From UHGV virus genome UHGV-0239872: DNA of 42,526 bases; one strand, written 5' to 3'. The notes under the pieces were generated by a model that saw nothing but the letters and a program-made list of their open reading frames with translations, was not told the DNA's origin and did no database searches. Numbering within the stretch: the first letter of the stretch is position 1; each line of letters starts with the position of its first letter. Shown here piece after piece: positions 1 through 42,267 of this stretch. This stretch comes from a virus. Made by a program: the position numbers and the translations under genes.

Positions 1-83
1 CAGGCGGTACAGCAGTACCGCCACGTCTTGCCCATCCGTAATGTCAGGCCCACGGAATACCTTGACCGGATGCAGCGCCATGC

Positions 84-368
84 TTAGACCTCGAAGCTAC
101 CAATCGCCTCGTAGCCCTGAGCAGGCATGTTCTCAGCCGCACCAGCGTTCAAGGTGCCGCCATTCAGCAGGAATGCCAGCTCACCCATGCGGCTGATGTC
201 AGATTCCAGCGACGGCAGCGCAGCCTTCGCGTCTTCGACCGTGTTCAGTTCCGGTACATCGTGGCAGCCAGAGATACACAGCGCCATGTTGCCTTCTTCG
301 AAGCCATCGCCCACGATTGCAACGATATCTTTTTGGGAAGCGGAGTAGTATGCAGTTACTTTAGCCAT
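84..368 (-). CDS. small highly acidic early protein (94 aa; starts at the internal ATG, MAKVTAYY...)
   Basis: ATG at 366-368 with GAGGG SD; ORF-track N-terminal extension has no RBS; preceded by hairpin plus GGCATGATTGCC box; net charge about -10. Confidence 0.6.
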   Translation of the reverse strand: MAKVTAYYSASQKDIVAIVGDGFEEGNMALCISGCHDVPELNTVEDAKAALPSLESDISRMGELAFLLNGGTLNAGAAENMPAQGYEAIGSFEV

Positions 369-405
369 GGTAAAACCCTCAGTTAGTTGTGGCATGATTG
401 CCCTA

Positions 406-429
406 CAGCCCACCGCTATGGATGGGCTG
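406..429 (-). promoter_or_regulatory. 5'UTR hairpin (CAGCCCA-10nt-TGGGCTG) followed by a GGCATGATTGCC box (391-402) upstream of gene 84..368
   Basis: perfect 7-bp stem; one of five perfect or near-perfect hairpins that precede the acidic early genes. Confidence 0.5.
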
Positions 430-436
430 ACAGAAA

Positions 437-667
437 TCACGCAGTCGCTACGACTTCGCCTTGCAGTGCTGCCCGGACAGCCGCAGCGTAGCCCGTAGTA
501 GCCAGCGCTTCTTCGATATCATCGAAGTGTTCTTCGTTGCCCAGTTGAGAACGAGCGTAGCGCTCGCTGGTATACACAACCACCTCCGTGCGCCCGGCGT
601 TGAATTGTGCGAAGGTTACTTCGCCATCGTTCGGGTCGATGAAGCGTACCAGTTCAAACTTAGCCAT
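437..667 (-). CDS. small acidic early protein (76 aa)
   Basis: ATG 665-667 preceded by AGGAG; tightly packed after the upstream gene. Confidence 0.55.
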   Translation of the reverse strand: MAKFELVRFIDPNDGEVTFAQFNAGRTEVVVYTSERYARSQLGNEEHFDDIEEALATTGYAAAVRAALQGEVVATA

Positions 668-695
668 GCTTTGTACTCCTGTTGTTGGTTGTGGG

Positions 696-971
696 TTACT
701 CGAAGTCAGCCGCGTCTACGTTGTCGGCTTCGAAGCTGGTGATGAAGCGCGGCTCCAGTTCGTTCAGCTTCTCGACGGAGAGCTTGCCACCCTGAATGGC
801 AATCAGCATACCGCCGAGGTCTTCCAGCGCCTCGCGCACTTCACCGATTACTTCATCGTGGCTTGCGTCCGGCTTCGGCTGCACGCCCAGCGACGGTGCG
901 TTATCTTTGGTCTCGCCTACGATGAAAGCCAGACCGCCGTTGTTCAGTGCAAACACATTGATAGTGGACAT
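696..971 (-). CDS. small highly acidic early protein (91 aa, MSTINVF...)
   Basis: ATG 969-971; conserved 5'UTR module (hairpin, GGCATGATTGCC box, SD); shares an IVG(D/E) / LNGG motif with the 84..368 product. Confidence 0.6.
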   Translation of the reverse strand: MSTINVFALNNGGLAFIVGETKDNAPSLGVQPKPDASHDEVIGEVREALEDLGGMLIAIQGGKLSVEKLNELEPRFITSFEADNVDAADFE

Positions 972-1036
972 AATAAATCCTCGATAGGTTAAGGCATGAT
1001 TGCCGCATTGCCCCCTCGCAAGGAGGCAACAAGGCA

Positions 1037-1378
1037 TCACGCGTCGAAGTCGATATCGTCTTCCGCGTCGTACTCTTTGAGCACGTTGATAACCACGTCT
1101 TCACCCAGTGTTTCGGTGTCGATGTAGGCGTGGCCGCCCATGAGAGCGAACAGTTCCAGCGGGAAGCCAGACTCGCGGAACTCTGCGAAGCTGGTGTCGT
1201 TATCGAAGTGCGCCACGATAGCGTCAGGAGAATCGCCGTCGCAGTTGCGGCCTGCAATCAGGTAGCGCTCGTCGTCCTGAGTGAAGCCAACCCACTCGCT
1301 GGTGATAGTGTCAGCCGGAACGCCTGCGCCGAAAGCAGAGGCAGCGATGTTGGACAGCAGAACCAGTTTGATAGTCAT
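1037..1378 (-). CDS. small highly acidic early protein (113 aa, MTIKLV..., net charge about -19)
   Basis: ATG 1376-1378, GAGGG SD; perfect 8-bp hairpin and GGCATTATTGCC box upstream. Confidence 0.6.
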   Translation of the reverse strand: MTIKLVLLSNIAASAFGAGVPADTITSEWVGFTQDDERYLIAGRNCDGDSPDAIVAHFDNDTSFAEFRESGFPLELFALMGGHAYIDTETLGEDVVINVLKEYDAEDDIDFDA

Positions 1379-1414
1379 AGTAAAACCCTCGATTGAGTAA
1401 GGCATTATTGCCAC

Positions 1415-1439
1415 GCTGCGCCCTCGTTGAAGGCGCAGC
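1415..1439 (-). promoter_or_regulatory. 5'UTR hairpin (GCTGCGCC-9nt-GGCGCAGC) followed by a GGCATTATTGCC box (1401-1412) upstream of gene 1037..1378
   Basis: perfect 8-bp stem with no U-tract, so not an intrinsic terminator. Confidence 0.5.
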
Positions 1440-1449
1440 AGGACAACGC

Positions 1450-1731
1450 TTACTCGTCGTCAACCTCGGCTTCGAAGGTGCCGATTTCTTCCAGCGTCAG
1501 GCCGCTACCGTGACGCGCTTTCAGCTCGTCTTCGTCCTGCTCAGCGAGCATGATGATGAACTCATGCGGCAGCGGGATACCAGCCAGCGTTTCCAGAATG
1601 CCTGCGTTGTCGGTCGGCTCGCCGTCTTCACGGACGTGGTGCAGGTACTGGCCTTCGTTCAGAGATACAGCGAAGCCATACAGTTCGCCGTCACGTTTGG
1701 TGATGAAAGCAGTTACAGTTTTGATAGACAT
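1450..1731 (-). CDS. small highly acidic early protein (93 aa, MSIKTV..., net charge about -15)
   Basis: ATG 1729-1731 with TAGGAG SD; hairpin and GGCAGAATTGCC box upstream; N-terminus paralog-like to 1037..1378. Confidence 0.6.
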   Translation of the reverse strand: MSIKTVTAFITKRDGELYGFAVSLNEGQYLHHVREDGEPTDNAGILETLAGIPLPHEFIIMLAEQDEDELKARHGSGLTLEEIGTFEAEVDDE

Positions 1732-1769
1732 GGTGAAGCTCCTAAATGGTTGGGGCAGAATTGCCATAA

Positions 1770-1791
1770 AGCCAGCGCCTTGACACTGGCT
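1770..1791 (-). promoter_or_regulatory. 5'UTR hairpin (AGCCAG-10nt-CTGGCT) followed by a GGCAGAATTGCC box (1754-1765) upstream of gene 1450..1731
   Basis: perfect 6-bp stem. Confidence 0.45.
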
Positions 1792-1806
1792 TGAGTCAAT
1801 CCCGGC

Positions 1807-2085
1807 TTACGCCACTTCGAAATCTTCCTGACGACCCCAGCGCACCGTGCCATCGTACGGCGTGCCGTTGTTATCATCCAGCAGCCAGAGGAAGTCGCCG
1901 GATTCGTCCAGCAGTTCACGGCTTTCCTTGAAGTGCGGCAGTTGCTCCGCGCCTTCTTGAATGTTCAGGCGGCCAGTGTCGTCAATCGTAGCAACGATGC
2001 GGCCAGTAGGCTGGGCTTCCATGGTGGTTGCAGGAATGGAACCAGCTTTCGGTTTGATGCGAGTGTCAACAGCTTTAAAAGTCAT
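1807..2085 (-). CDS. small acidic early protein (92 aa)
   Basis: ATG 2083-2085, AAGGGG SD; perfect 7-bp hairpin (2124-2146) upstream. Confidence 0.55.
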   Translation of the reverse strand: MTFKAVDTRIKPKAGSIPATTMEAQPTGRIVATIDDTGRLNIQEGAEQLPHFKESRELLDESGDFLWLLDDNNGTPYDGTVRWGRQEDFEVA

Positions 2086-2123
2086 GCTATACCCCTTGAG
2101 GTTGGTGTGTGTGGTTACAATTC

Positions 2124-2146
2124 AGGCCACTCAGTGAATGGCCTGT
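2124..2146 (-). promoter_or_regulatory. 5'UTR hairpin (CAGGCCA-9nt-TGGCCTG) upstream of gene 1807..2085
   Basis: perfect 7-bp stem. Confidence 0.45.
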
Positions 2147-2152
2147 CAGTAA

Positions 2153-2677
2153 TCACGCAGCTTTCAGCTTGCGCAGGCCGTCCAGCACGTTCTGAGGCAC
2201 GACAACCTTGTTCGCGTCTTCATCACGCCCTTCGTGGCGCAGCTCATTGGCCTTGTTCATTGCCTTCTCAGCTTTGGCAATGAGCTTGTCCAGCGCTTCT
2301 TGCAGGTCGAAGCCTTCGAACGCTGGCTCAGGCTTGCAAGTCCACCACATCGTGGCTTTCGCCTTGTCGATGTTGTCGCGGATATGGTCTGCGCCTTTCC
2401 AGCCGACGAAGCCGGATTTACCATCCTCGCGCTCACCGATTACCAGACCGCCGAACTGCACGAACCAGTCAACCAGTGCTTTCTGGCGAACGCCCTCGCC
2501 CAGCCCATTAACGAAGGACTCAGCACGAGTGTAGTCGCCATGCTTGTGAGCATGAAGGATGATGCCAACGGCTACATTCTGGATGCCGTTACGCAGTGTT
2601 TTGGCCTTGCTGATTGTGTCAGCGATAGCTTTATCCAAAGCGGCCACGTCTTTGAAGCTGGTGTATTTGAATTGCAT
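2153..2677 (-). CDS. hypothetical early protein (174 aa, starts at MQFKYT)
   Basis: ATG 2675-2677 with AAGGGG SD; ORF-track start further upstream lacks an RBS. Confidence 0.5.
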   Translation of the reverse strand: MQFKYTSFKDVAALDKAIADTISKAKTLRNGIQNVAVGIILHAHKHGDYTRAESFVNGLGEGVRQKALVDWFVQFGGLVIGEREDGKSGFVGWKGADHIRDNIDKAKATMWWTCKPEPAFEGFDLQEALDKLIAKAEKAMNKANELRHEGRDEDANKVVVPQNVLDGLRKLKAA

Positions 2678-2824
2678 GATGTTACCCCTTGTCAGGTTGG
2701 TTGATTTCACATAGCGCCCCGCAGGACGCTATAGGCTATCAGCCACGGCGACGGCTCAGGCGTTGGTCAATGACCCAGCAGGCCGCCGCTATAACACACA
2801 GTGCAGTGAACATAGTCATTCCCC

Positions 2825-3214
2825 TTACTCCACTACCCAAAACAGTTCACCGTCATAAGTCCAAGCGGTATGCTGCCCGGCTTCCATCTGCTCGCCTGTT
2901 TTGCTGACCAGCTTGCCAGCAGGCTTGCCCGGATACGGTGAATCCATGAAGATTGCATCATCATCTTTGGTCACTACCATGATGCAGTCCTGTTCAAAGG
3001 CTTTACAGAACAGCTTAACAGCCTGTCTGATTTCGTAGATTCCATCGACAGGAAAGACCATGCTTAACTCATACGCATTGTCGAACTTGCCTGTCAGTGT
3101 GACCGGAATCACTCCGAACATATCCTGCACCGTTCGCAGTGCCTTGCAATGAAGCGCCAGATTAACACACTCAGCGTTTCCCTGACGATATGCGCTTGCA
3201 TAGATACGGTACAT
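2825..3214 (-). CDS. hypothetical early protein (129 aa), first clear early gene downstream of the promoter cluster
   Basis: ATG 3212-3214 with TGGAGAAA SD. Confidence 0.5.
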   Translation of the reverse strand: MYRIYASAYRQGNAECVNLALHCKALRTVQDMFGVIPVTLTGKFDNAYELSMVFPVDGIYEIRQAVKLFCKAFEQDCIMVVTKDDDAIFMDSPYPGKPAGKLVSKTGEQMEAGQHTAWTYDGELFWVVE

Positions 3215-3687
3215 AGTTATTTCTCCAGTTGTTGGCTATTTTCAGGTGGATAGTGAACCCATTGTGACGCGCCGTACAGTCTGCACTCAGTGGCATTGAT
3301 TGGCTTGTCGGATTCACTACCCTGAAAAATCGCCCCGCCCATTTCGCGCTGTGAGTCACCACTCACTCTCAGGAGTCCTTTAGCAGTCCGTCGCGTATCT
3401 TGCTCACCGTTGCCAGCTAACAAGCCGTTTGACTACCCACCTACTACCCTCCGCGCCTTATAAGACGTTCGGTATTGTGCTGATACTGCGCTGCGTCTAT
3501 CGCGCTTCTCCGTTACCTTGCATCAGGCGCTACCCCTACGGCGTTAGCAATGTTGCGATACCGTTGCCTTTCGGCGATGCCTCACCCAGTTCCAACCTGC
3601 GGCGGATACCCAGTGAGCCGTGACACTACGCGGCCAGTTTGCGTTCACTCAGAGCAGGATGCTTTCCATCCTTTCAACTCGGTGCTG

Positions 3688-3716
3688 ATTACAACACAGT
3701 GTATTCAGCTTGTCAA
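3688..3716 (-). promoter_or_regulatory. sigma70-type promoter A (minus strand: TTGACA-N17-TGtTGTAAT, extended -10)
   Basis: rc of 3711-3716 is TTGACA; rc of 3688-3693 is TGTAAT; 17-nt spacer; TG at -15/-14. Confidence 0.6.
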
Positions 3717-3767
3717 CTACTTTTTACTTCTGACTGACTGGCTTGCTGCCCTGTCAATCTGGTGTGC

Positions 3768-3796
3768 ATTACAGCATACTCGTTTCATCCTGTCAA
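3768..3796 (-). promoter_or_regulatory. sigma70-type promoter B (TTGACA-N17-TGcTGTAAT)
   Basis: same module as A; part of the repeated unit ATTACAGCATA...CTGTCAAC on the plus strand. Confidence 0.6.
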
Positions 3797-3905
3797 CCGA
3801 TTTAATCAGCGCCCGTTCAGAGTTAATTAAACCGTACCAGTTAGCCTGCGCGGGTGTTAACGTGTTTATCCATCACTATTCGGCTTGTCTGGCTGACGTG
3901 GAAGC

Positions 3906-3934
3906 ATTACAGCATAGTGAGCTTGCCTTGTCAA
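3906..3934 (-). promoter_or_regulatory. sigma70-type promoter C (TTGACA-N17-TGcTGTAAT)
   Basis: same module; 17-nt spacer. Confidence 0.6.
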
Positions 3935-4006
3935 CACACCAGATTGTTAAAGAGCAGTGCTACCGTTCAATCTTGTCTACTGGGCTAGTGCCTTTCGACG
4001 TGATGA

Positions 4007-4036
4007 ATTACAGCACATAACCAAAACAGTTTGCAA
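4007..4036 (-). promoter_or_regulatory. sigma70-type promoter D (TTGCAA-N18-TGcTGTAAT) with AT-rich UP-like sequence upstream
   Basis: rc of 4031-4036 is TTGCAA; rc of 4007-4012 is TGTAAT; AT-rich 4037-4060. Confidence 0.5.
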
Positions 4037-4164
4037 GTATTATTTTCAAGAAAAGTGATAAGTTACTGTAATCATTAGGATTAAAGTTTGATTAGATAAT
4101 CACAACACTGGATAGAATACCGTTAGATTACCATGAATAAATCCTTATAAATCAATGATTAAAT

Positions 4165-4182
4165 GAAAGTAACTATAGTGAT
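4165..4182 (-). promoter_or_regulatory. candidate phage-RNAP promoter core (minus strand ATCACTATAGTTACTTTC, contains the SP6/T7/K11-type CACTATAG)
   Basis: exact 18-nt repeat of 26325-26342 in opposite orientation; sits in a roughly 180-bp AT-rich island between the terminus-like repeats and the sigma70 promoters, a position analogous to T7 phiOL. Confidence 0.4.
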
Positions 4183-4199
4183 AGATATCGCTAGATAGC

Positions 4200-4660
4200 T
4201 GTCAGCGAGCGCGGCGCAGCCGAAACAAGCGAGCGCGGAACGGCAACGGATGGAATCCGACAGGATGACAGGCGGCAGACAGTGAACGCAGTAGACAGAG
4301 TGTAGGACAGTAACAGCAGGTAGCAGAGCATGACGCGCAGAGCTGGAGGCGCAGACAGTAGACCAGCAGACAGGACAGCACCACGCAGCACCACCGCCAC
4401 CACACAGCACCACGCCGCGCCACGAAAAGAGACAGATACCCGCACGACCACGCGCAGCACGCAGCACAGCACAGCCAGCGCAGAGCGTCCCCATAGGACA
4501 GCACCGCACAGCACAGCCAGCAGGACAGCGCACAGCACGACACACGGCAGACGATGAAACGCGACACGCACGAGCTATACCGCACGCAGGCAATCCTTTC
4601 GACGCGCCGCGCAGCGCACGCGAGCAATTATCGCGCACGTCGCGAGGCTAAACCGCGCAC
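4200..4660. repeat. T-depleted (plus strand almost only A/C/G) CA/GCA-rich low-complexity tract with short imperfect direct repeats; candidate genome-terminus or terminal-repeat-adjacent repeat array
   Basis: T is about 3-8% over about 450 nt; CACAGCACAGCCAGC occurs twice (4465-4479 and 4507-4521); AGGACAGCAC occurs at 4372-4381 and 4496-4505, with a degenerate AGGACAGCGCAC copy at 4522-4533; junk ORFs in all six frames. Confidence 0.5.
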
Positions 4661-4777
4661 ACGCTATGGGGGCACGCGCGGTCATTTGGGTCGAGGGAGG
4701 GGCAAGTATAAACGTGCAATTTTCAAGCCGGGGTATTGCACCCACGGCCTGTTCATTGCCTCAGCTTTTGGATACCC

Positions 4778-5314
4778 CTACAGCGTCGCACAGTAAGCGC
4801 TACAGCGTTTTGCACGAGCAACCAAGGCATCCCTATAGCGAACCACTGTCGGGGCTGTAGAAGCCTTTAGGAACGCAATACGAAGGTCACAGATGGCTGC
4901 TGCTGCGGAGTGAGGTTCCAGACGTTTGGCTGCTGCCACGGTAGCAGGGCCAACAATCCCGTCTTGTGCAACGCCGCATACCCGCTGTAGAGCTTTCGCC
5001 GCACGGGAGACACCGGAGTTGACACCGTAGTCAAACACGGCACATGCAATCGCAGGGTGAAGTTCGTCACCTCGGATGGGGGTGTAGTAATCCCGTCGAT
5101 AGATTGCTTCGGCTTGTGCTTTGGTGAGCTGCTTGATAGGTACACAAATAGTGCCGCCAAGCCCAGTAGGGACACCACAAGCTCTGCCATCCAGTTTGCC
5201 ATCACGAGCGTCACTAATTCCATGATTCGTTTCCCCTCCGGTATCGCCGGGCAGCTTGGTGTAACCACCTTCTGCCAGCCCGGTGAACCGCATACAGATT
5301 TCAAAGTTAGTCAT
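4778..5314 (-). CDS. endolysin: GH108 N-acetylmuramidase-like catalytic domain plus PG_binding_3 domain; no SAR or signal sequence
   Basis: TGLAEGGY...DTGGETNHGIS matches the GH108 EGGY motif; C-terminal ...FDYGVNSG...DGIVGPAT matches PG_binding_3; last gene before the non-coding terminus region. Confidence 0.8.
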   Translation of the reverse strand: MTNFEICMRFTGLAEGGYTKLPGDTGGETNHGISDARDGKLDGRACGVPTGLGGTICVPIKQLTKAQAEAIYRRDYYTPIRGDELHPAIACAVFDYGVNSGVSRAAKALQRVCGVAQDGIVGPATVAAAKRLEPHSAAAAICDLRIAFLKASTAPTVVRYRDALVARAKRCSAYCATL

Positions 5315-18043: not shown

Positions 18044-20494
18044 TTAGATTCTCCGAACTTTGTTGTAGAACTTGATGTAGTAGCCCAGCCCCTGAATGTT
18101 CAGGTCGCCAGCCGTAGACGAGTCCACGACCATGCTGCTGGATTCCACCTCAAGACCCATGCGAACTTTCAAGTGCGCACGCTTAGCCAGCATCGCTGAC
18201 TCCAGACCTAACTCCTGACTGGTGTACCGGATAGGGCTGCTGATAATGTTCAGCGCCGAGTACGCACCCCGGTCGCTCGCTGTGATGTTGAACAGGCTCG
18301 TGTACCGCAACGTGAAGTTGTAGTGCATGATGACCATCTTGTTCACATCCATGTACGAACCGTCCTGATTGAACACTCGCGGCGGCGTAGGGCTGAACAC
18401 TGCTTTGAATCGCAGGCCCACATACAGCGAAGTGCTGCCGTACGATGGCTGGAGATAGACACGGCGGTTCGTGGTGTCGATGGATTTAATACCCACCTCA
18501 GCCCCGATGTAGTTGCCGGATGGCACTACGTTCGTCATGAAATCCCAGTTTCCCTCAGTCTGGTAACGGTACTGGATGATATCCCACAGCGCCTTCTGCT
18601 CGCCGGACGCGGCGAACTGGATGTACGAGCTATCCGTGGCCGGGTTCGTCACAGTCAGCAACTGGGCGTAGTCAATGGCCGGGAGGAATCGCGCCGGGTC
18701 AGTCGGGTCGGGAGAGTCTCGCATGGACAGCGTGAGCAAGTTCATGTGGCCCTGCTGCTCGACCAGCACAACCAGCACCTCACGGACAAACCATGCAGCC
18801 TGAATCGTGCCATACACTTCCCAGCGGTGCCACGAGGATAGAACCTTCTCGTCACCAGACCAGAGGTACTCGTTCACGTACAGCGTTGACTTCTCAGTCG
18901 TAGAGCCAAACACAACGATGTTGTTCGTGGTGCTGGCAGAGATGTACGAGTTGGCCCCTTCCAGATAGGTCGGCAGGTGGTCGGTCACATCCTGACTCAC
19001 GTACTGCAAATCCGTGTAACCGGACGGTAGCATCTCTTTGATGGAGAACGAGCTGTTCGAGCGCGGGTACGCGTAATACAGGCTGCGGCCAGAGGTGGTC
19101 GGCGGTACGCCAGTGTCCATCTGGTACGTCGAGGTCAACACAGCGGTGGCGTTGTTCGGCGTGAGGATTTGGTTGCGTCCGGGGATAACGGCTTGGTGTT
19201 CTTCGCTGGCCAGAATCAGGTCAGAGTTGAATGGGATACCGTACCGGAACGATGCCCCGGCGAAGCTGGATGCAGTGAACTCGATACGGTCGTCGTCCAG
19301 TACCTGCGTCACAGTCGTACGGAAGAAGTTGTTGCGGTCTTCCTTGTTGCTGGAACCCATGGTAATGTACGGCCCGGAGAACACAATCAGGCGACCTTGG
19401 AAGGAAGCCAGTCCAGTAATACCCACACCATCGGCATCCGTGAATGCTGGGATAGCGTTGGTCTTATCATCACCAGCCAATCGGCCCGGCCAAGTGCCTT
19501 GTGTGAAGGTGTGCTGGTTCAGGGTCGAGGTGGTGTTGAATACCAGCGGCATGGTGCTGGGGTTAATCCCAGTCGGGGAGCCATAGGCACCCTTCTCAAT
19601 CCAGCGCGAGTCATTGTAACTCCACTGGAAATACTGGGCAAAGTTATCATCGCCAACAGTCATGATGAAGCCACCCGCCGAGGCTGGCAGACGAGCTGGC
19701 AGCTTAGTGGTCAGGTCAACTGTGTGCGTGTTTGACGCAATGGCGTAGCTGGAACCAGTCGAGGTGGACACGTTCATGTCAGCGGCTGCTGCGGTACACT
19801 GGATGTACAGGTACGCGCCGTCCTGCGCCACCACTTCAATACCCTCGGCACCGCCGATGTGGGTATCGAGTTGGGACTTGAGCTGGCCCACGATGTACTC
19901 AGGCGTTGACTCCTGCGACGGGTTGCCCGTGGTCGCTGAGCTTTCAGGCGTAGTGTATGTTGCGCTGACCGCGCCGAGTTTGGTCTGCACGCGAACAGTG
20001 AACTGCTTGCCGTAGGCACCAGCGATAACGAAGTAGTAACCCCGGCGACCCGGATTCATACGCGTCTCGTTCTCCAGAAGCACGGGCAGCTTGGAGCAGT
20101 TGGCAACATACATGGTGTTGCCTACGGTAGCGAATACAATGTCGTCGGGGTTGTTCGTGACGAGGTACGAGGACTGGCCCATGAACTGGACAGTCTCGGT
20201 CTCGACGATGGCGGTGACATAACCAGTCTTCGTGTTCACGATGAACGTGGTGATGCCCCAACCTAAGTTAGTGGTTGTGAAGCGTAAGTGGCCGAAGTTA
20301 CCAAGGCTCCAGACGTTCGCGTTAGTGGAATCCACAGTGCGGTGCAGTCGGGTGCCGGGGCGTTTACGCAGGCCACGGACAGTATCAGAGGTCATGTTGA
20401 CCTGTTCCTCAACCTGCGATAGCTGTCGGTCGGTATAGACCTGCTGGCTCACGCCGCCGAGGATGGATTTATAAGCGCCTTGGTATACTGGCAT
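18044..20494 (-). CDS. tail tubular protein B (T7 gp12-like, 816 aa)
   Basis: size and position after tail tubular A. Confidence 0.8.
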   Translation of the reverse strand: MPVYQGAYKSILGGVSQQVYTDRQLSQVEEQVNMTSDTVRGLRKRPGTRLHRTVDSTNANVWSLGNFGHLRFTTTNLGWGITTFIVNTKTGYVTAIVETETVQFMGQSSYLVTNNPDDIVFATVGNTMYVANCSKLPVLLENETRMNPGRRGYYFVIAGAYGKQFTVRVQTKLGAVSATYTTPESSATTGNPSQESTPEYIVGQLKSQLDTHIGGAEGIEVVAQDGAYLYIQCTAAAADMNVSTSTGSSYAIASNTHTVDLTTKLPARLPASAGGFIMTVGDDNFAQYFQWSYNDSRWIEKGAYGSPTGINPSTMPLVFNTTSTLNQHTFTQGTWPGRLAGDDKTNAIPAFTDADGVGITGLASFQGRLIVFSGPYITMGSSNKEDRNNFFRTTVTQVLDDDRIEFTASSFAGASFRYGIPFNSDLILASEEHQAVIPGRNQILTPNNATAVLTSTYQMDTGVPPTTSGRSLYYAYPRSNSSFSIKEMLPSGYTDLQYVSQDVTDHLPTYLEGANSYISASTTNNIVVFGSTTEKSTLYVNEYLWSGDEKVLSSWHRWEVYGTIQAAWFVREVLVVLVEQQGHMNLLTLSMRDSPDPTDPARFLPAIDYAQLLTVTNPATDSSYIQFAASGEQKALWDIIQYRYQTEGNWDFMTNVVPSGNYIGAEVGIKSIDTTNRRVYLQPSYGSTSLYVGLRFKAVFSPTPPRVFNQDGSYMDVNKMVIMHYNFTLRYTSLFNITASDRGAYSALNIISSPIRYTSQELGLESAMLAKRAHLKVRMGLEVESSSMVVDSSTAGDLNIQGLGYYIKFYNKVRRI

Positions 20495-21042
20495 TATCCT
20501 CTCCGAGCACTCTCATAGCGCCACCAGCTCTTACGCTGGCGAGCATTGAATCGACGCTGGCGGGTATGAATAGTCTGGCACTGCTGTAGCGCCATGGCAT
20601 AGCCACCTGTCACACTGGCTGGGGGATTGTCTCCCATGTCGTCTGCGTACGCGGAGATAGCTGCTTGATAAGCAACAAGTCGTTGTACCGGACTTGGTAG
20701 GTCATCCCAGCCCAAATCGTACGTCACCAATCCCGGAACATCTTCTGTAAAAACAAAGGTTTGAGATTGCGCGTTGTAAAGATACCCGCCACGCACAATG
20801 CACTCAAACCCATCAGGGATGAAGCTAAGAGCGTCGGCGGGATATTTAACCCTACCATCCGTTTCGCGGGGGATGGTGATTCGAATATTGTTGAACCACC
20901 AACCATCAGTGAGAACTTCTTCCTGAGCGATACCAATCTTGTCAAGTGCAAGGGTAACGGACGGGTTTCGAATCTCAGTTGAAGATACGGTGTGTTCGGA
21001 CAATGCTCGAAGAACAATGTTTACTGCTTCGAGTAGAGTCAT
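20494..21042 (-). CDS. tail tubular protein A (T7 gp11-like, 182 aa)
   Basis: size and position; GGGAGG SD. Confidence 0.7.
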   Translation of the reverse strand: MTLLEAVNIVLRALSEHTVSSTEIRNPSVTLALDKIGIAQEEVLTDGWWFNNIRITIPRETDGRVKYPADALSFIPDGFECIVRGGYLYNAQSQTFVFTEDVPGLVTYDLGWDDLPSPVQRLVAYQAAISAYADDMGDNPPASVTGGYAMALQQCQTIHTRQRRFNARQRKSWWRYESARRG

Positions 21043-21065
21043 AAAACCTCCCAGTGATAATCATA

Positions 21066-21088
21066 GAAGCCCCTCAGAGAAGGGCTTC
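21066..21088 (-). terminator. Tphi-like hairpin between the capsid and tail tubular A genes
   Basis: GAAGCCC-9nt-GGGCTTC perfect 7-bp stem; followed on the minus-strand RNA by UAUGAUUAU; same location as T7 Tphi (after gene 10). Confidence 0.5.
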
Positions 21089-21098
21089 GAGTTTACCA

Positions 21099-22091
21099 TT
21101 AGGTCTCGGTAGTGACGACTGCCACCACGTCTGGACGACGCTGGCCCACGGTGTACATGTGGAAGCTATCCAGAACGTTGGTCAGTTCACGTTCGTCATC
21201 CCATACGCGGTTGAACAGCGGCTGGGCTTCGACAGTGACCAGAGCCAGAGACGGGTCGAAGATAATCATCTTGCGCTGAATCTCGTCGGCAGTGACGTTG
21301 AAGTCAGGGCCGAGGATGTGGTCAGTGATTGCCGCCTGCGGGAACGCGTTGCTCTCGATGATACGGATACCGTTCACGTAAGCCACACGGCGCATTGCGA
21401 AGTCGTTGACACCACGGCCACCAGTGAACTCAACGTTCATCAGTTTCTTGTGCTCCAGCAGAATGCTGAACCACGCCGGGTCAATCAGCGTAACCAGACG
21501 GCCAAGGTCAGCGTCGCGGCGAATGAACGCCTCGATAGCTTTCTTGTGGCCATGTACCAGCGCAGACGCGTCATCTTCCTCAAATGCCACGGTGCCAGTC
21601 AGAGTGACCTGCTCCTTGATACCTGCGTTGAACGCGCCAGCCAGAGAAGCCGGAGGCACGAAGTCAGCAGACTTCTGGAGCTGGATGACGTGCGCTTGGT
21701 CGAACGCCTTAGCCTGAGCAGTACCCATGTTACGGGTCAGCTCGGCACGGAAGTCCGGCGCAGTCCAGTCGTCCTGATAGTCAATCGGGATACGGATGTA
21801 GGACACGGTATCCACAGTGACAATCAGTTTCTCAGAGCGAACAGGCTGGTTGTCCAGCGCCTCGCCAGAGCGACGACCTTTAACGGTCACAGAGCCGAGA
21901 CGGTCGCCACGCCAAGTGTTGGACTGGTTAGCCACAGACTTGAAGTTGGTCAGACCGGAACGGAAGATGGAGTTGTAAATGAACTGGGTCTGCACGTCAC
22001 GGTCATACACCTCAAGGTGAATGTCGTTGTCAGAGTTCGCGCCACCCCAGTGTGGACGGAACTGGTTCGGGGTATAAGCGTTATCAGCCAT
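21099..22091 (-). CDS. major capsid protein (T7 gp10-like, 330 aa)
   Basis: size, position and N-terminal similarity to T7-like capsid proteins; AAGGA SD. Confidence 0.85.
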   Translation of the reverse strand: MADNAYTPNQFRPHWGGANSDNDIHLEVYDRDVQTQFIYNSIFRSGLTNFKSVANQSNTWRGDRLGSVTVKGRRSGEALDNQPVRSEKLIVTVDTVSYIRIPIDYQDDWTAPDFRAELTRNMGTAQAKAFDQAHVIQLQKSADFVPPASLAGAFNAGIKEQVTLTGTVAFEEDDASALVHGHKKAIEAFIRRDADLGRLVTLIDPAWFSILLEHKKLMNVEFTGGRGVNDFAMRRVAYVNGIRIIESNAFPQAAITDHILGPDFNVTADEIQRKMIIFDPSLALVTVEAQPLFNRVWDDERELTNVLDSFHMYTVGQRRPDVVAVVTTET

Positions 22092-26262: not shown

Positions 26263-26324
26263 ACAATCCTCTCTTAGTGGCAGTAACCCCCGCCACTGAC
26301 GGGGCTACCGGTAGCGTGATACAT

Positions 26325-26342
26325 ATCACTATAGTTACTTTC
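26325..26342 (+). promoter_or_regulatory. second copy of the ATCACTATAGTTACTTTC motif (plus-strand orientation), in an AT-rich structured spacer just after the RNAP gene
   Basis: exact 18/18 match to rc(4165-4182); extended similarity about 30 nt (TTAAA[T]GAAAGTAACTATAGTGATA); flanked by palindromes GTGATAtgTATCAC and GCTACCGGTAGC and a GC hairpin CCCCG-7nt-CGGGG. Confidence 0.4.
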
Positions 26343-26369
26343 TTTAAGTGCAAGAAATATAAGGCTAAA

Positions 26370-28799
26370 TTAGCAGAAGAATTTAGAGGATTTATTTACC
26401 TCGTTAATGTCTAACTGCCCCCGCGCTGGCGGCTCTTTACTATATCTCATGGCAAGTTGTTGAATTGGGTCATGTTGCTCATACATCTGTACGAACTTTT
26501 CACGAATGACCTTGTGGAGTAACCCGGCATGTGCAGCCGCCACCCCGAACGAATCGTGGATGGACACCATGTACACCCCGTTATTCCACATCTCCCACAA
26601 CACCTTCATCATGTGGCTGGCATCCATGGCATGTACGAAATTCGGAGCAATCGCAGCGGCACACTTCCTGCCGTCTGGTTTGTCGATATACTCCCGTAGC
26701 ACGATAGCATGTACCTTCATCAGATACAGCATCATGCGAGTCTCTTTACTTGCCTGATACAGATTAACCACACGCAGACCTGACGGGGCAGTGAACTCTA
26801 CATACTCGCCGTTGGCTGCCGCCTCAACCGCGATAGCCTGCAACCATGCCATCAGCTCTGCCGCCTTCGGCACAACGCGGGGGATTGCATTCCACATGAA
26901 CTCTGCGATGAACTGCGCACACTCCAGCAGGCTCTTGCCGTCCGGCAGCTTGACCCGGTTCTCTCGCAGATACAGGCAGTAGTAATCCACCATACCGTGC
27001 CGGGTTGCCCCGTACACGTAGGTCATCACTGGCTTCTTAGCCATCGCCCGGACAATACCGATTGAAACAAGCCACGTACCCATCTGCGTTGGTGACTGCG
27101 CTTCACTATCTTCAAGAGCCTGCATCGCCGCTGCTGCCGTCTTGAGATATATGTCTGCCTTTCGCCCCACGCTATTGATAAGGTTGACAGCAGCACCCCC
27201 AACTTCATCGCGTAACATTGCGCTGAGGTGTTGGAGACCTGAACATGTAGCGTCCCACTGCGTAACCACTCGGCAGGGATAAGTCTCAGGACTTCCGCTG
27301 TCGATAGCTCGAATGAGTTCAACAGATGCAGCCCACGCTGAGATAGGGCTATCGGCCTCAGACCAGAACGAATCAAATGCCTCTGGAAGACGGCACGCCT
27401 CACGTAGTCGGGGGAGTGTTTTGTCCGTCCACGCCGCCCGGTCGTCGAAGTCTGTTGCGTCGTAGCCGAAGCAATTCGCAACATGAACCTTGAGCCAGAA
27501 CAGCCCCTCAGTTCCGAGAGCCACTGGTTCCGCAAGCTCAAGCAGCGCTCGCACCGCGTCGATAGACTGAGGGTTAAGGGTCGAAGAATAATAAATTCGG
27601 CCCCGCGTATCGGCGTAAGTCGGGAGATAAATCCTATCGTACTGGGCATAGCGCTCGGCCTCTTTGACTGCGCCGTTCAGTGCCAGCATCTGCGACGTGA
27701 ACTTACGCAACTCATTGTAATACAAGCGAGTCTTCACCTTGTACTCATGAGCTTCCGCATCCATCTGCTGCTGCATCTCTGGTGGGAACTTGCTGATGTA
27801 CTGGGCGAAGCTGACGCCTGCCGGGATAGTGAATGGGAGCTTAGGCTCACGAGGCGGCACAGGCAGCCCCATAACGCCTGTACGGTTCGTTCGCAGGAAC
27901 TCCAGTACCATTGGGTTAACTCGGTACGGAACGCTGCTGAGCATCATACACGGCTCTATAACAGGGGTCGGGTCAACGTTCAATGCACGATACCCTTTGT
28001 GGTTCATGCGACTCATGACCCGGTACATCGCCGCCTGCCCATCTGAATGCCACATACCACTGCGACCATTCGGGGCAATCTGCTTCGGTGGGATAATCAG
28101 CGGTGGGCAGCACATGCCATCGGCACGCGGCATGTCCAGCCAGTCGTTCATCGTAGCCAGCACATCTTCATGCAGTGCGAAGTGTGCCGTACCGCGCTGG
28201 CGCTGGTTGCCGCCGACGCGAATCGTGGACACCAGACCAGTCGGCTCAACGCACTTCATCATCAGCTTGCCAATGGTAATCAGCGCACGCTGCGGCAGCA
28301 CATCAATCTCCACCCCAACGTTCGCCGCCGACGCACGCGCTTTATTGTAAACGTGGTTCGCTGACTTCGAGCGAGACTTCTTCACGTCCTGCTGCACGCG
28401 CTCCATGTAAGCCGCCTGCTGTGGCCCGGTCTGCTTCGCCCGGAGATACACCACCTCAGCCATTAGTGCCTTGCCCATATTCTTAAGCAAGCTCAGCACT
28501 GCCTGCTCTGACGCAGCACCGGACACCGCCATGCTCAGTGCAAGAGAGGCACACGCTTTGGCACCAATCTCACGCATGAACGTCCGGTACTGCGCACCTG
28601 CACCACGGGTCGTTTCGCTCAGGGTTTCTTGCATCGCAGCTTCGACCAGAGGATAAGCCTCAACCATCATACGCTGGAGCAACGGCACCGACCCGGCGCG
28701 GCCACTGGCCATCGCCTCTTTGATATTATCCAGCCAGCCCTCGCGGTGTCTGGCTCGCGCTTCTTCTTCAAGTCGAATCTGCTCTGCAAGTAAATCCAC
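26370..28799 (-). CDS. single-subunit DNA-dependent RNA polymerase (T7 gene 1-like, 809 aa)
   Basis: [20 protein letters not shown] (T7: [20 protein letters not shown]), [27 protein letters not shown] and IHDSFG motifs; AAGGAG SD. Confidence 0.96.
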   Translation of the reverse strand: [809 protein letters not shown]

Positions 28800-40487: not shown

Positions 40488-40506
40488 ATTTCATCCTCAC
40501 GTTGGC

Positions 40507-40550
40507 CAATATAGTTACCTTCATAATGCCAGCTAAATAATAACTGGCAT
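40507..40550. promoter_or_regulatory. AT-rich intergenic element: degenerate third copy of the TATAGTTAC motif (ATATAGTTACCTTC, plus orientation) plus a perfect 7-bp hairpin ATGCCAG-11nt-CTGGCAT
   Basis: 12/14 match to the ACTATAGTTACTTTC core; hairpin at 40526-40550. Confidence 0.3.
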
Positions 40551-40560
40551 GAGTAGATGA

Positions 40561-41965: not shown

Positions 41966-42021
41966 AGTAACCTCGCTCGTTTGATAATGACACAGCCCCC
42001 GCAAGCAGAGGCTGTAGCTTA

Positions 42022-42267
42022 TCACTCGACGATTTCGATGGTGTGACCAACGTGTGCGGCAGTGAATGCGAAGCACTCGTCACCCACATCGTCAACGAAG
42101 AAGATACCCTGCTCGTCAGTTGTGTAGCTGCCGTCAGGAAGTTCTTCACCATCCTCAACCAGCAGTGCGTCGTACTCTTTGCCGATGGTGGTGTCACGTA
42201 CTGCGCCAGAGAAATGCTCAGGCAGAGAGGTGTGACCGATGATGCGAATCAGAATTGAACGTGCCAT
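42022..42267 (-). CDS. hypothetical acidic protein (81 aa, MARSILIRI...)
   Basis: GAGGA SD 8 nt upstream of ATG 42265-42267. Confidence 0.45.
   Translation of the reverse strand: MARSILIRIIGHTSLPEHFSGAVRDTTIGKEYDALLVEDGEELPDGSYTTDEQGIFFVDDVGDECFAFTAAHVGHTIEIVE

What the first reader, a model, noticed from the sequence alone, without database searches (positions are those of the whole stretch)
391..2146. Reiterated 5'UTR module: perfect hairpin, GGCAnnnnTGCC mini-palindrome, conserved spacer, SD
Four early genes (ATGs at 368, 971, 1378 and 1731) are each preceded by a GC-rich 6-8 bp hairpin that is perfect in three cases and has one mismatch upstream of 696..971. Each hairpin is followed 0-3 nt later by a conserved box GGCA(T/G)(G/T/A)ATTGCC on the plus strand, at 391-402, 993-1004, 1401-1412 and 1754-1765. 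A roughly 20-nt semi-conserved spacer follows (ttACtcAAtcGAGGgtTTTAcc on the mRNA) before the ATG. A fifth hairpin at 2124-2146 lacks the box. The hairpins have no U-tract, so they are not intrinsic terminators. In T7 the early polycistronic RNA is cut between genes by RNase III at hairpins, so these could be processing or stabilising sites, or a binding site for a phage-encoded regulator.
Basis: seen in the sequence. Interest (0 to 1): 0.55.

Follow-up and report, generated by a model that had tools for sequence, protein, structure and literature searches.

The report
T7-type RNase III hairpins between early genes
The repeated "hairpin plus box" between the early genes of this T7-relative phage is one longer, roughly 20-base-pair RNA stem-loop. 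It closely resembles the sites where the host enzyme RNase III cuts phage T7's early messenger RNA, so it is a new example of a textbook mechanism, not a new kind of element.

Summary
Four GGCAATNNTGCC boxes lie on the gene (minus) strand at 391-402, 993-1004, 1401-1412 and 1754-1765. Each follows a GC-rich hairpin and sits 21-22 nt before an ATG.

The anatomy needs revising. When the end of the upstream ORF is included, each module folds into one interrupted stem-loop of 19-27 bp. The box is the 3' strand of a lower stem that pairs with the last codon, the stop codon and a few following bases (GCGUGAUU/AAUCAUGC). Both stems covary across 31 distinct modules from at least five phage genera.

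The modules align collinearly with the T7 early RNase III sites. A covariance model built only from the five T7 sites finds the fifth hairpin (E 1e-4), module 4 (E 0.08) and further sites in the window. The reverse model ranks T7 R0.5 as its best T7 hit.

My best explanation is host RNase III processing and stabilising signals. The predicted cut falls just 5' of the box. This is a new member of a known kind.

One point stays open. The same box stands alone at the predicted mRNA 5' end in unrelated viral contigs, so it may also act as a 5'-terminal mini-hairpin.

No cleavage was tested.

The parts
391..442 (-). Module M1. An extended stem-loop made of lower stem GCGUGAUU/AAUCAUGC (includes the UGA stop at 437-439 of ORF 437..667), UCU/GGG, and a 9-bp upper stem CAGCCCAUC/GGUGGGCUG. 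The box is 391-402. The cut predicted by alignment to T7 lies between 403 and 402.
   Evidence: Folding gives -29.7 kcal/mol, z -4.65, 0 of 200 shuffles as good. Covariation is shown. Model R2 scores it E 1.6e-18, by construction.
993..1042 (-). Module M2. Lower stem GCGUGAU/AUCAUGC plus GCC/GGC, then an 11-bp upper stem with a UGCG loop. The box is 993-1004. The predicted cut lies between 1005 and 1004.
   Evidence: Folding gives -31.3 kcal/mol, z -4.77. Box partners are listed.
1395..1455 (-). Module M3, a 27-bp interrupted helix: GAGUAAG/CUUACUC, CGUUGU/AUAAUG, CC/GG and a 12-bp upper stem. The box is 1401-1412. The predicted cut lies between 1413 and 1412.
   Evidence: Folding gives -36.3 kcal/mol, z -6.24.
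1754..1804 (-). Module M4. Lower stem GGGAUUG/CAAUUCU and a 10-bp upper stem. The flanks ACUCAAG...CUUUAUG match T7 R0.3, R0.5 and R1.1. The box is 1754-1765. The predicted cut lies between 1766 and 1765 (CUUUAU|GGCAAU).
   Evidence: Alignment A1. The T7-only model R1 scores it E 0.08. Folding gives z -3.35.
2108..2159 (-). H5, the fifth hairpin (upper stem 2124-2146), with its lower stem but no box. It closely resembles T7 R1 (ACAGGxCAU...GUGGCCUGAAU). The predicted cut lies between 2121 and 2120.
   Evidence: The T7-only model R1 scores it E 1e-4. Alignment A1. Folding gives z -5.97.
2698..2745 (-). H6, a stem-loop upstream of the gp2-like gene (2153..2677). It matches the motif published as the 'putative phage promoter' of KP34-like viruses, and it has the same two-part fold as the other sites.
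   Evidence: A 32-nt stretch is 100% identical in distant podophages. The consensus is given in PMC4411677. Folding gives z -4.38. Model scores are R1 E 1.3 and R2 E 0.08.
41982..42024 (-). A further early intercistronic site, GAG-UGA-UAAGCUACAGCC...GGCUGUGUCAUUAUCA. The stop codon lies in the lower stem, as in T7 R0.5.
   Evidence: R1 E 0.0036 and R2 E 0.004. The sequence is shown. Folding gives z -4.17.
21050..21097 (-). The strongest T7-like site in the window, between the major capsid gene (21099..22091) and tail tubular protein A (20494..21042): AAACUCGAAGCCCUUC...GGGGCUUCUAUGAUUAUCAC.
   Evidence: R1 E 2e-6. The same site is hit in altidsur and J8-65. Folding gives z -3.13.
369..390 (-). 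G-poor leader with the SD (GAGGG) for ORF 84..368. Equivalent leaders lie at 972-992, 1379-1400 and 1732-1753.
   Evidence: Position counts from 49 distinct modules show G almost absent for about 10 nt after the box, and the SD 9-11 nt from the box.

Best explanation
The modules are T7-type RNase III processing and stability signals in the polycistronic early mRNA, which host RNA polymerase is expected to make.

Each signal is an irregular stem-loop of about 20 bp. Its lower stem forms between the end of the upstream ORF (last codon, stop codon and a few nt) and the 'box'. An internal loop or bulge separates it from a GC-rich upper stem, which is often capped by a UNCG loop.

By analogy with T7, host RNase III should bind the two-turn helix and cut once, on the 3' side of the internal loop. 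In M1-M4 that position is immediately 5' of box position G1.

The upstream cistron would then end in a 3' hairpin that blocks 3'-5' exonucleases. The downstream cistron would start as pGGCAAUNNUGCC, followed by a G-poor leader and the SD sequence.

Shown here: the structures, their covariation, their similarity to the T7 sites, and their distribution. Inferred: transcription by host polymerase, cleavage by RNase III, the exact cut site, and the effect on stability.
For: (1) Folding. With the ORF end included, M1-M4 fold as single 19-27 bp interrupted helices. Energies are -24 to -36 kcal/mol, z-scores -3.4 to -6.2, and 0 of 200 shuffles fold as well.

(2) Covariation in 31 distinct modules from Bonnellvirus, LIMEzero, LIMElight, PhiM1, Buco, BF25/12 and viral contigs. 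Of all cells, 89.4% pair, against 74.5% in shuffles (0 of 500 reach the observed value) and 38-47% when the partners are slid. All 8 upper-stem pairs show changes on both sides. In the lower stem, box position 7 is C when the stop codon is UGA and U when it is UAA. Box position 8 is A-U or C-G according to module type.

(3) Recurrent UGCG, UACG and UUCG loops point to function at the RNA level.

(4) Collinear alignment with T7 R0.3, R0.5, R1, R1.1 and R1.3, including the ...CUUUAU|G and ...CCUGAAU| contexts of the cut.

(5) A covariance model built only from the five T7 sites hits the window on the gene strand. Hits are 21050-21097 (E 2e-6), H5 (E 1e-4), 41982-42023 (E 0.0036) and M4 (E 0.08). 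In 376 kb of unrelated bacterial DNA the same model gives one hit at E 0.85.

(6) The reverse model, built from box modules, ranks T7 R0.5 as its best T7 hit. It recovers 4 of the 5 T7 sites among its 7 T7 hits.

(7) The stop codon is embedded in the lower stem in T7 R0.5 as well.

(8) The sites are intercistronic and confined to the early region in the whole genomes fetched.

(9) Literature. E. coli RNase III substrates span about two helical turns. Internal loops limit cutting to one strand, and the 3' hairpin left behind stabilises the RNA. T7's early precursor carries five such signals (PMC1540722, PMC3867540).
Against: No cleavage data exist for this phage or its relatives.

The T7-only model does not reach M1-M3 (E above 10). 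These three are linked to the T7 sites only through M4 and H5, the shared GCGUGAUU... flank, and weak reciprocal hits (E 0.13-4.3). The model E-values are rough.

The T7 cut coordinates come from my memory of Dunn and Studier (1983); the T7 record fetched does not annotate them.

Pairing alone does not explain why box positions 1-3 (GGC) never change while their partners vary (UCU, GCC, UCG).

The box also occurs in unrelated contigs without the lower-stem arrangement.

I did not check the proximal-box and distal-box determinants of RNase III position by position.
Confidence: 0.62

Rival explanations
1. The stem-loops are not cut. They act only as passive intercistronic elements: barriers to 3'-5' exonucleases after cleavage elsewhere (for example by RNase E at the AU-rich UGA|UUUC), or insulators that keep each ribosome-binding site unstructured.
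For: The hairpins are stable and GC-rich with UNCG loops. GA|UUU at the M1-type stop codon fits the RNase E preference RN|WUU, which I take from general knowledge. The leaders are G-poor.
Against: A passive role does not explain the conserved lower stem about two helical turns long. It also does not explain the sequence-level similarity to sites that RNase III is known to cut.
Confidence: 0.17
2. The box is chiefly an autonomous 5'-leader element, a 4-5 bp mini-hairpin GGCA-NNNN-UGCC at the very 5' end of the mature mRNA. It would protect against 5'-end-dependent decay or bind a factor. Its pairing with the stop-codon region would be secondary.
For: The same 15-mer, TAGGGCAATCATGCC, lies 0-3 nt after the expected start of a sigma-70-type promoter (TTGACG-16-TATTAT) in an unrelated contig group next to an ArdA gene. 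A second copy in that group follows a 23-bp hairpin, and there the box folds on its own. A further case is L021. Box-to-SD spacing is tight. GGC at box positions 1-3 is invariant although its partners vary. In 596 Gb of bacterial genomes, none of 57 matches had both an SD and an ORF of at least 100 aa.
Against: The mini-hairpin is weak, at -3.5 kcal/mol. The three variants with U9 changed to C break it while improving the lower stem. No compensatory change was seen inside the mini-hairpin. In the J8-65 and Lidtsur type, the box lies 9 nt downstream of the aligned cut.
Confidence: 0.3
3. The box or the hairpin is a promoter for the phage's own RNA polymerase. The KP34-like virus paper proposed this for the H6 motif. 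The LIMEzero annotated promoter TTTAAAGGCAATCACTAAGG shares GGCAATCA with the box.
For: PMC4411677 lists AGCCTATAGCGTCCTACGGGGCGCTATGTGAA as a putative phage promoter. The shared 8-mer with the LIMEzero promoter is shown.
Against: The box is identical in genera whose predicted phage promoters differ: the window has AAAGTAACTATAGTG and GAAGGTAACTATATTG, while LIMEzero has AAAGGCAA(T/G)CACTA. The box is absent before middle and late genes. It sits before genes that precede the polymerase gene. It covaries as RNA with the stop-codon region. The 8-mer occurs three more times on the gene strand inside coding sequence in the window.
Confidence: 0.04
4. The box is a palindromic DNA operator for a phage or host regulator. 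Alternatively, the modules are conserved mainly as recombination linkers that shuffle early gene cassettes, as proposed for the promoter-stem-loop cassettes (PeSL) of T4.
For: The box is palindromic, and in L031 it overlaps +1 of a promoter. The DNA homology of relatives breaks exactly at modules: the match begins at query position 364 for forsur, ROV85 and glasur, and at 2111 for smaasur and J8-65. The same module precedes many unrelated genes.
Against: Conservation within the box is asymmetric (GGCAAT against variable NN-TGCC), and the box always has the same orientation. Covariation with the stop codon is an RNA-level signature. No sigma-70-like promoter is found in 1-4800. A linker role can coexist with RNA function but would not explain the compensatory changes.
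Confidence: 0.08

Closest known systems
Phage T7 early RNase III processing signals R0.3, R0.5, R1, R1.1 and R1.3
   Same: Both are intercistronic elements in the early operon. Both are stem-loops of about 18-21 bp made of a lower stem, an internal loop and a 9-12 bp GC-rich upper stem. The stop codon of the upstream gene lies inside the lower stem (T7 R0.5). They share sequence blocks: G-UGA-U..ACUCAAG/ACAGG..GGCCUUUAU|G or CCUGAAU|. After the cut, a 27-34 nt leader precedes the AUG.
   Different: The host phage belongs to a different family-level lineage (Bonnellvirus-like, with the polymerase gene late in the middle region). M1-M4 carry a subfamily-specific 3' strand, GGCAAUNNUGCC, that is self-complementary. 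Cleavage has not been demonstrated. M1-M3 are not reached by a model built from T7 alone.
'Putative phage-specific promoter' motif of KP34-like viruses (PMC4411677)
   Same: Element H6 (2698-2745) matches that consensus, and a 32-nt stretch is identical in several podophage genera.
   Different: Here it folds as the same two-part stem-loop as the other sites and scores weakly with both models. It is therefore more likely an RNA processing or stability signal than a promoter.
5'-terminal stabilising stem-loops (E. coli ompA leader, T7 gene 10 leader); general knowledge, not tested here
   Same: After the predicted cut, or after the L031 promoter, the box would form a hairpin flush with the mRNA 5' end.
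   Different: The box hairpin has only 4-5 bp, its effect on decay is unknown, and its sequence rather than its pairing is what is conserved.
T4-type PeSL cassettes (promoter-early stem-loop); from memory
   Same: Both are reiterated stem-loop-containing intergenic cassettes that flank small early genes and coincide with mosaic junctions.
   Different: No sigma-70-type promoter is present in the modules.

Membership tests
T7-type RNase III processing signal | Irregular double helix of about two turns (about 20 bp), with at least 11 bp between the loop and the cut | tested here: met
   M1 has 20 bp, M2 21, M3 27, M4 20, and H5 about 19. The criterion is taken from PMC1540722.
T7-type RNase III processing signal | Internal loop or bulge between the upper and lower stems, which limits cleavage to one strand | tested here: met
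   M1 has a 2x2 loop plus a 1-nt bulge. M2 has a 1x1 loop plus a bulge. M3, M4, H5 and H6 also have asymmetric loops.
T7-type RNase III processing signal | Similarity in sequence and structure to the experimentally defined T7 sites | tested here: inconclusive
   Met for H5 (E 1e-4), 21050-21097 (E 2e-6) and 41982-42023 (E 0.0036). Borderline for M4 (E 0.08). Not reached for M1-M3. The reverse model recovers 4 of the 5 T7 sites, but only weakly (E 0.13-4.3). The negative control was clean.
T7-type RNase III processing signal | Structure conserved through compensatory changes | tested here: met
   10 of 18 pairs show changes on both sides, 0 of 500 shuffles reach the observed score, and the slid controls fall to 38-47% paired.
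T7-type RNase III processing signal | Intercistronic position in a polycistronic transcript | tested here: met
   All sites lie between same-strand ORFs with no promoter-like or terminator-like sites between them. That they are co-transcribed is inferred.
T7-type RNase III processing signal | Cleavage that depends on RNase III | not testable with these tools
   This needs end-mapping in rnc+ and rnc- hosts, or in vitro cleavage.
Intrinsic (rho-independent) terminator | GC-rich hairpin followed by a U-tract | tested here: not met
   No U-tract follows any of the hairpins. The terminator scan lists none of them.
Phage single-subunit RNA polymerase promoter | Conserved motif of about 20 nt before middle and late genes that changes together with the polymerase | tested here: not met
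   The box occurs only in the early region and is identical across genera whose predicted promoters differ.
T4 PeSL cassette | Stem-loop followed by a sigma-70 early promoter | tested here: not met
   No promoter-like site was found in 1-4800.
Any curated Rfam family | Match at the gathering score or at a low E-value | tested here: not met
   There were 0 matches at gathering score in the window. With the E-value threshold, no match fell on the modules.

The most novel reading that the evidence does not exclude
The 12-nt box GGCAAUNNUGCC may be an autonomous leader element that is shared horizontally. Phages of unrelated families would place it flush with the 5' end of early, anti-restriction-region mRNAs. 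In the T7-relative podophages an RNase III cut would create that end. In the L031 contig group and L021 transcription initiation would create it. There the box would fold into a terminal mini-hairpin that shields the message from 5'-end-dependent decay, or that a conserved factor recognises.
Probability: 0.28. Interest if true: 0.62.

Novelty: new member of a known kind. Interest (0 to 1): 0.42.

Why it matters
If confirmed, T7-style RNase III punctuation of early mRNA is not peculiar to T7 and T3. It would extend, with recognisable sequence similarity, to phiKMV-like podophages of Enterobacterales: Bonnellvirus, LIMEzero, LIMElight, PhiM1, Buco and BF25/12.

It would also give a concrete alternative reading of a motif published as a 'putative phage promoter' in KP34-like Klebsiella phages.

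It supplies precise cut-site predictions that a single end-mapping experiment in rnc+ and rnc- hosts can test.

It marks the boundaries at which small early genes, possibly anti-defence genes, appear to be exchanged between phages.

It provides compact natural 'insulator' cassettes (3' protective hairpin, defined 5' end, unstructured leader) that may be useful in engineering therapeutic phages and operons.

Tried and rejected
- Sigma-54, sigma-70 and other promoter readings of the box. The GG..GC spacing is 3 nt too short for sigma-54 by inspection, and there were no sigma-70-like sites in 1-4800.
- Rfam at gathering score and at E up to 10. Nothing matched the modules.
- Complementarity or identity of the box to E. 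coli 16S, 23S or 5S rRNA. Only chance-level runs of 7-9 nt were found.
- A host regulatory motif. The scan of 185,579 species genomes for TAGGGCAATCATGCC-N17-24-ATG gave 57 scattered matches, none with both an SD and an ORF of at least 100 aa.
- Literature search for the box as a string. Nothing relevant was found.
- The paralogue by-product idea. It was rejected. The single-linkage cluster that joined the M1 and M2 genes was transitive only.
- A viral-contig scan with GCGTGATTTCTGTC.
- Pfam on the eight early proteins. Only the first gene (2825..3214) matched, as an S-adenosylmethionine lyase.
- Outgroup early regions (phiR8-01, Dev-CD-23823, Kc318, a Salmonella phage). They contain no box and no T7-type hits at E up to 0.1.
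- My first folding started after the stop codon.
Full report
**Context.** The window is a complete, circularly permuted genome of a podophage close to the genus Bonnellvirus. It is 93% identical to Escherichia phage Ec1-ASingh and 85% identical to altidsur, and J8-65 is also related. All genes lie on the minus strand. The early region starts with an S-adenosylmethionine lyase gene (2825..3214), runs down to position 84, and then wraps to the window's right end. The single-subunit RNA polymerase gene lies far downstream (26370..28799). The early genes are therefore expected to be transcribed by host polymerase. That is an inference from genome order and from what is known of phiKMV-like phages.

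**Observation.** GGCANNNNTGCC occurs exactly four times, at the coordinates given. The bare count is only weakly above chance: 1.5 matches are expected, and 4 of 100 shuffles reach 4 or more.

- On the mRNA strand all four copies read GGCAAU-NN-UGCC.
- Each follows a GC-rich hairpin by 2-4 nt.
- Each ends 21-22 nt before an ATG with an SD sequence.
- The fifth hairpin (2124-2146) lacks the box.
- None of the hairpins has a U-tract, and no terminator-like site is called at them.

**Conservation.** The box is present in three or four copies in every Bonnellvirus genome fetched, except ROV85, which has one. It occurs only in the early region. The hairpin stems differ between phages by compensatory changes.

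The same module, GCG-UGA-UUUCUGU-[hairpin]-UAG-GGCAAUCAUGCC-leader-SD-AUG, also occurs in phages of other genera and subfamilies:
- LIMEzero
- LIMElight
- Pectobacterium PhiM1
- Shigella Buco
- Dickeya BF25/12
- several uncultivated viral contigs

It is absent from the Melnykvirinae early regions and from a Salmonella relative.

The genes downstream of the box fall into at least 10 BLAST clusters. The four in this window show no pairwise similarity. The module is therefore not a by-product of gene duplication.

**Anatomy.** My first folding started after the stop codon and showed the box as a separate 4-bp mini-hairpin. When the last codons of the upstream ORF are included, each module folds as one interrupted stem-loop.

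- M1: GCGUGAUU pairs with AAUCAUGC (box positions 4-11), UCU pairs with GGG, and there is a 9-bp upper stem. The total is 20 bp at -29.7 kcal/mol.
- M2: 21 bp.
- M3: 27 bp.
- M4: 20 bp.
- H5, H6 and three further sites have the same two-part shape.

Z-scores range from -3.1 to -6.2.

The box is thus the 3' strand of a lower stem whose 5' strand contains the stop codon. Its 'variable' positions covary with that strand:
- Box position C7 pairs with the G of UGA. Modules whose stop is UAA have U7 (LIMEzero ORF7 and two modules of contig L042).
- Box position 8 is A-U in the M1 type and C-G in the M4 type.
- U9-to-C variants turn a G-U pair into a G-C pair.

On an alignment of 31 distinct modules, 89.4% of cells pair. 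Shuffles give 74.5% (0 of 500 reach the observed value), and slid partners give 38-47%. All eight upper-stem pairs carry changes on both sides. Upper-stem loops are often UGCG, UACG or UUCG. These are RNA-specific stabilising tetraloops, which I take from general knowledge.

**Comparison with T7.** I fetched the T7 early region. That record does not annotate the RNase III sites. The cut coordinates I recall from Dunn and Studier 1983 are 890, 1468, 3138, 5887 and 6448. They fall at CCUUUAU|GAU in R0.3, R0.5 and R1.1 and at CCUGAAU|AGG in R1, which supports the recollection.

The T7 sites align collinearly with the window modules:

- T7 R0.5: GAG-UGA-UAGACUCAAGGUCGCUCC..GAGUGGCCUUUAU|GAUUAUCAC
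- M4: CGGGAUUGACUCAAGCCAGUG..CGCUGGCUUUAU|GGCAAUUCUGC
- T7 R1: ACAGGUCAUCUGCGGGUGGCCUGAAU|AGGUAC
- H5: ACAGGCCAUUCACUGAGUGGCCUGAAU|UGUAAC

In T7 R0.5 the stop codon of gene 0.4 also lies in the lower stem.

A covariance model built only from the five T7 sites finds these sites in the window. All are on the gene strand, apart from a weak reverse-strand echo of H5.

| Window site | E-value |
|---|---|
| 21050-21097 | 2e-6 |
| H5 | 1e-4 |
| 41982-42023 | 0.0036 |
| M4 | 0.08 |
| 40510-40559 | 0.24 |
| H6 | 1.3 |

In 376 kb of unrelated bacterial DNA the same model gives one hit, at E 0.85. It also finds sites in altidsur, J8-65, LIMEzero and Buco.

The reverse model was built from the 31 box modules. 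Its best T7 hit is R0.5 (E 0.13). R1.1, R0.3 and R1 are also among its seven T7 hits. M1-M3 are not reached by the T7-only model. They are tied to the family through M4 and H5, the shared flank and the shared architecture.

**Mechanism.** According to PMC1540722 and PMC3867540:
- E. coli RNase III substrates typically span two helical turns.
- Internal loops restrict cleavage to a single phosphodiester.
- The resulting 3' hairpin protects the upstream RNA.
- T7's roughly 7-kb early precursor carries five such signals.

The window modules meet the structural criteria. By alignment, the cut in M1-M4 would fall immediately 5' of box position G1. Each upstream cistron would keep a 3' hairpin. Each downstream cistron would begin pGGCAAUNNUGCC, followed by a G-poor leader and an SD sequence 9-11 nt further on. 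The cleavage, its position and its consequences are inferences.

**What remains unexplained.**
- Box positions 1-3 (GGC) are invariant although their partners vary.
- The exact 15-mer TAGGGCAATCATGCC also occurs, with the same spacing to an SD and ATG, in unrelated viral contigs.
- In the L031 group the box starts 9 nt after the -10 hexamer of a TTGACG-16-TATTAT promoter, upstream of an unknown gene followed by an ArdA gene. A second copy follows a 23-bp hairpin and folds on its own as GGGCA-NNNN-UGCCC.
- L021, from a relative of Pseudomonas and Xanthomonas siphophages, is another case.
- In 596 Gb of bacterial genomes, none of 57 matches had both an SD and an ORF of at least 100 aa. The viral cases are therefore unlikely to be chance.

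This suggests that the box may have a second role as a 5'-terminal mini-hairpin (-3.5 to -6.8 kcal/mol). Against this, U9-to-C variants weaken the mini-hairpin. In the J8-65 and Lidtsur type, the box lies 9 nt beyond the aligned cut.

**Rivals considered.**
- Passive stabiliser without cleavage.
- Phage-polymerase promoter, prompted by the KP34 paper's reading of the H6 motif and by an 8-mer shared with LIMEzero's annotated promoter.
- DNA operator.
- Recombination linker.

The promoter and operator readings are contradicted by four findings. The covariation is at the RNA level. The box is restricted to the early region. It is invariant across genera whose predicted promoters differ. No sigma-70-like sites are present. 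A linker role may coexist with RNA function, since the DNA homology of several relatives breaks exactly at modules.

**Novelty.** RNase III punctuation of T7 early mRNA is textbook knowledge. I found no paper in the searchable library that describes such sites in phiKMV-like phages. None of the related records fetched annotates them. No Rfam family matches. The finding is therefore a new member of a known kind, with one loose end (the box) that could prove more interesting.

Noticed in passing
window 21050-21097 (minus strand): This is the strongest T7-like RNase III-type site in the genome (E 2e-6 with the T7-only model). It lies between the major capsid gene and the tail tubular protein A gene. 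The same site is hit in altidsur and J8-65. LIMEzero annotates a 'factor-independent terminator' after its capsid gene, at what appears to be the equivalent position; I did not check that sequence. The window site has no U-tract.
   Followed up: partly
window 2698-2745 (minus strand): This element matches the published 'putative phage promoter' consensus of KP34-like viruses (AGCCTATAGCGTCCTACGGGGCGCTATGTGAA). A 32-nt stretch is 100% identical in Minorna and in Klebsiella and Acinetobacter podophages. Here it folds like the other RNase III-type sites, so the promoter assignment may need revisiting.
   Followed up: partly
L031:3866-3913 and L031:5130-5215; L021:6470-6530 (minus strand): The exact box, with the same spacing to an SD and ATG, occurs in unrelated viral contigs. 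One copy follows a sigma-70-type promoter, upstream of an unknown gene that is followed by an ArdA gene. A second copy follows a 23-bp hairpin. L021 is related to PaMx74-like siphophages and has a second similar palindrome (TAGGGCCATTGCCCCTA) 12 nt upstream.
   Followed up: partly
window 364-368 and 2111 (module M1 and hairpin H5): The DNA homology of several relatives begins exactly at these modules: query position 364 for forsur, ROV85 and glasur, and 2111 for smaasur and J8-65. The processing sites therefore coincide with mosaic junctions of the early gene cassettes.
   Followed up: partly
window 26322-26345 and 40505-40525 (minus strand): The repeated motif (A/G)A(A/G)GTAACTATA(G/T)TG lies just after the polymerase gene and again after a hairpin in the early-to-middle region. 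LIMEzero annotates phage-specific promoters at what appear to be the equivalent positions (just after its polymerase gene and just before its primase gene). These are likely the phage polymerase promoters of this genome.
   Followed up: no
window 3215-4777: About 1.5 kb has no convincing gene. It presumably holds the genome ends, terminal repeat and early host promoters. Yet the simple sigma-70 scan finds no promoter-like site there, against 2.6 expected from shuffles.
   Followed up: no
window 84-2085 (minus strand): The six small early proteins (76-113 aa) have no Pfam match. Several, judged by eye, are rich in acidic residues, and they follow an S-adenosylmethionine lyase gene. They may be anti-defence proteins, but this was not examined.
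   Followed up: no
The first has the stop codon in its lower stem (GAG-UGA-UAAGCU...), as in T7 R0.5. The second is AT-richer and is followed by the putative phage promoter motif.
   Followed up: partly
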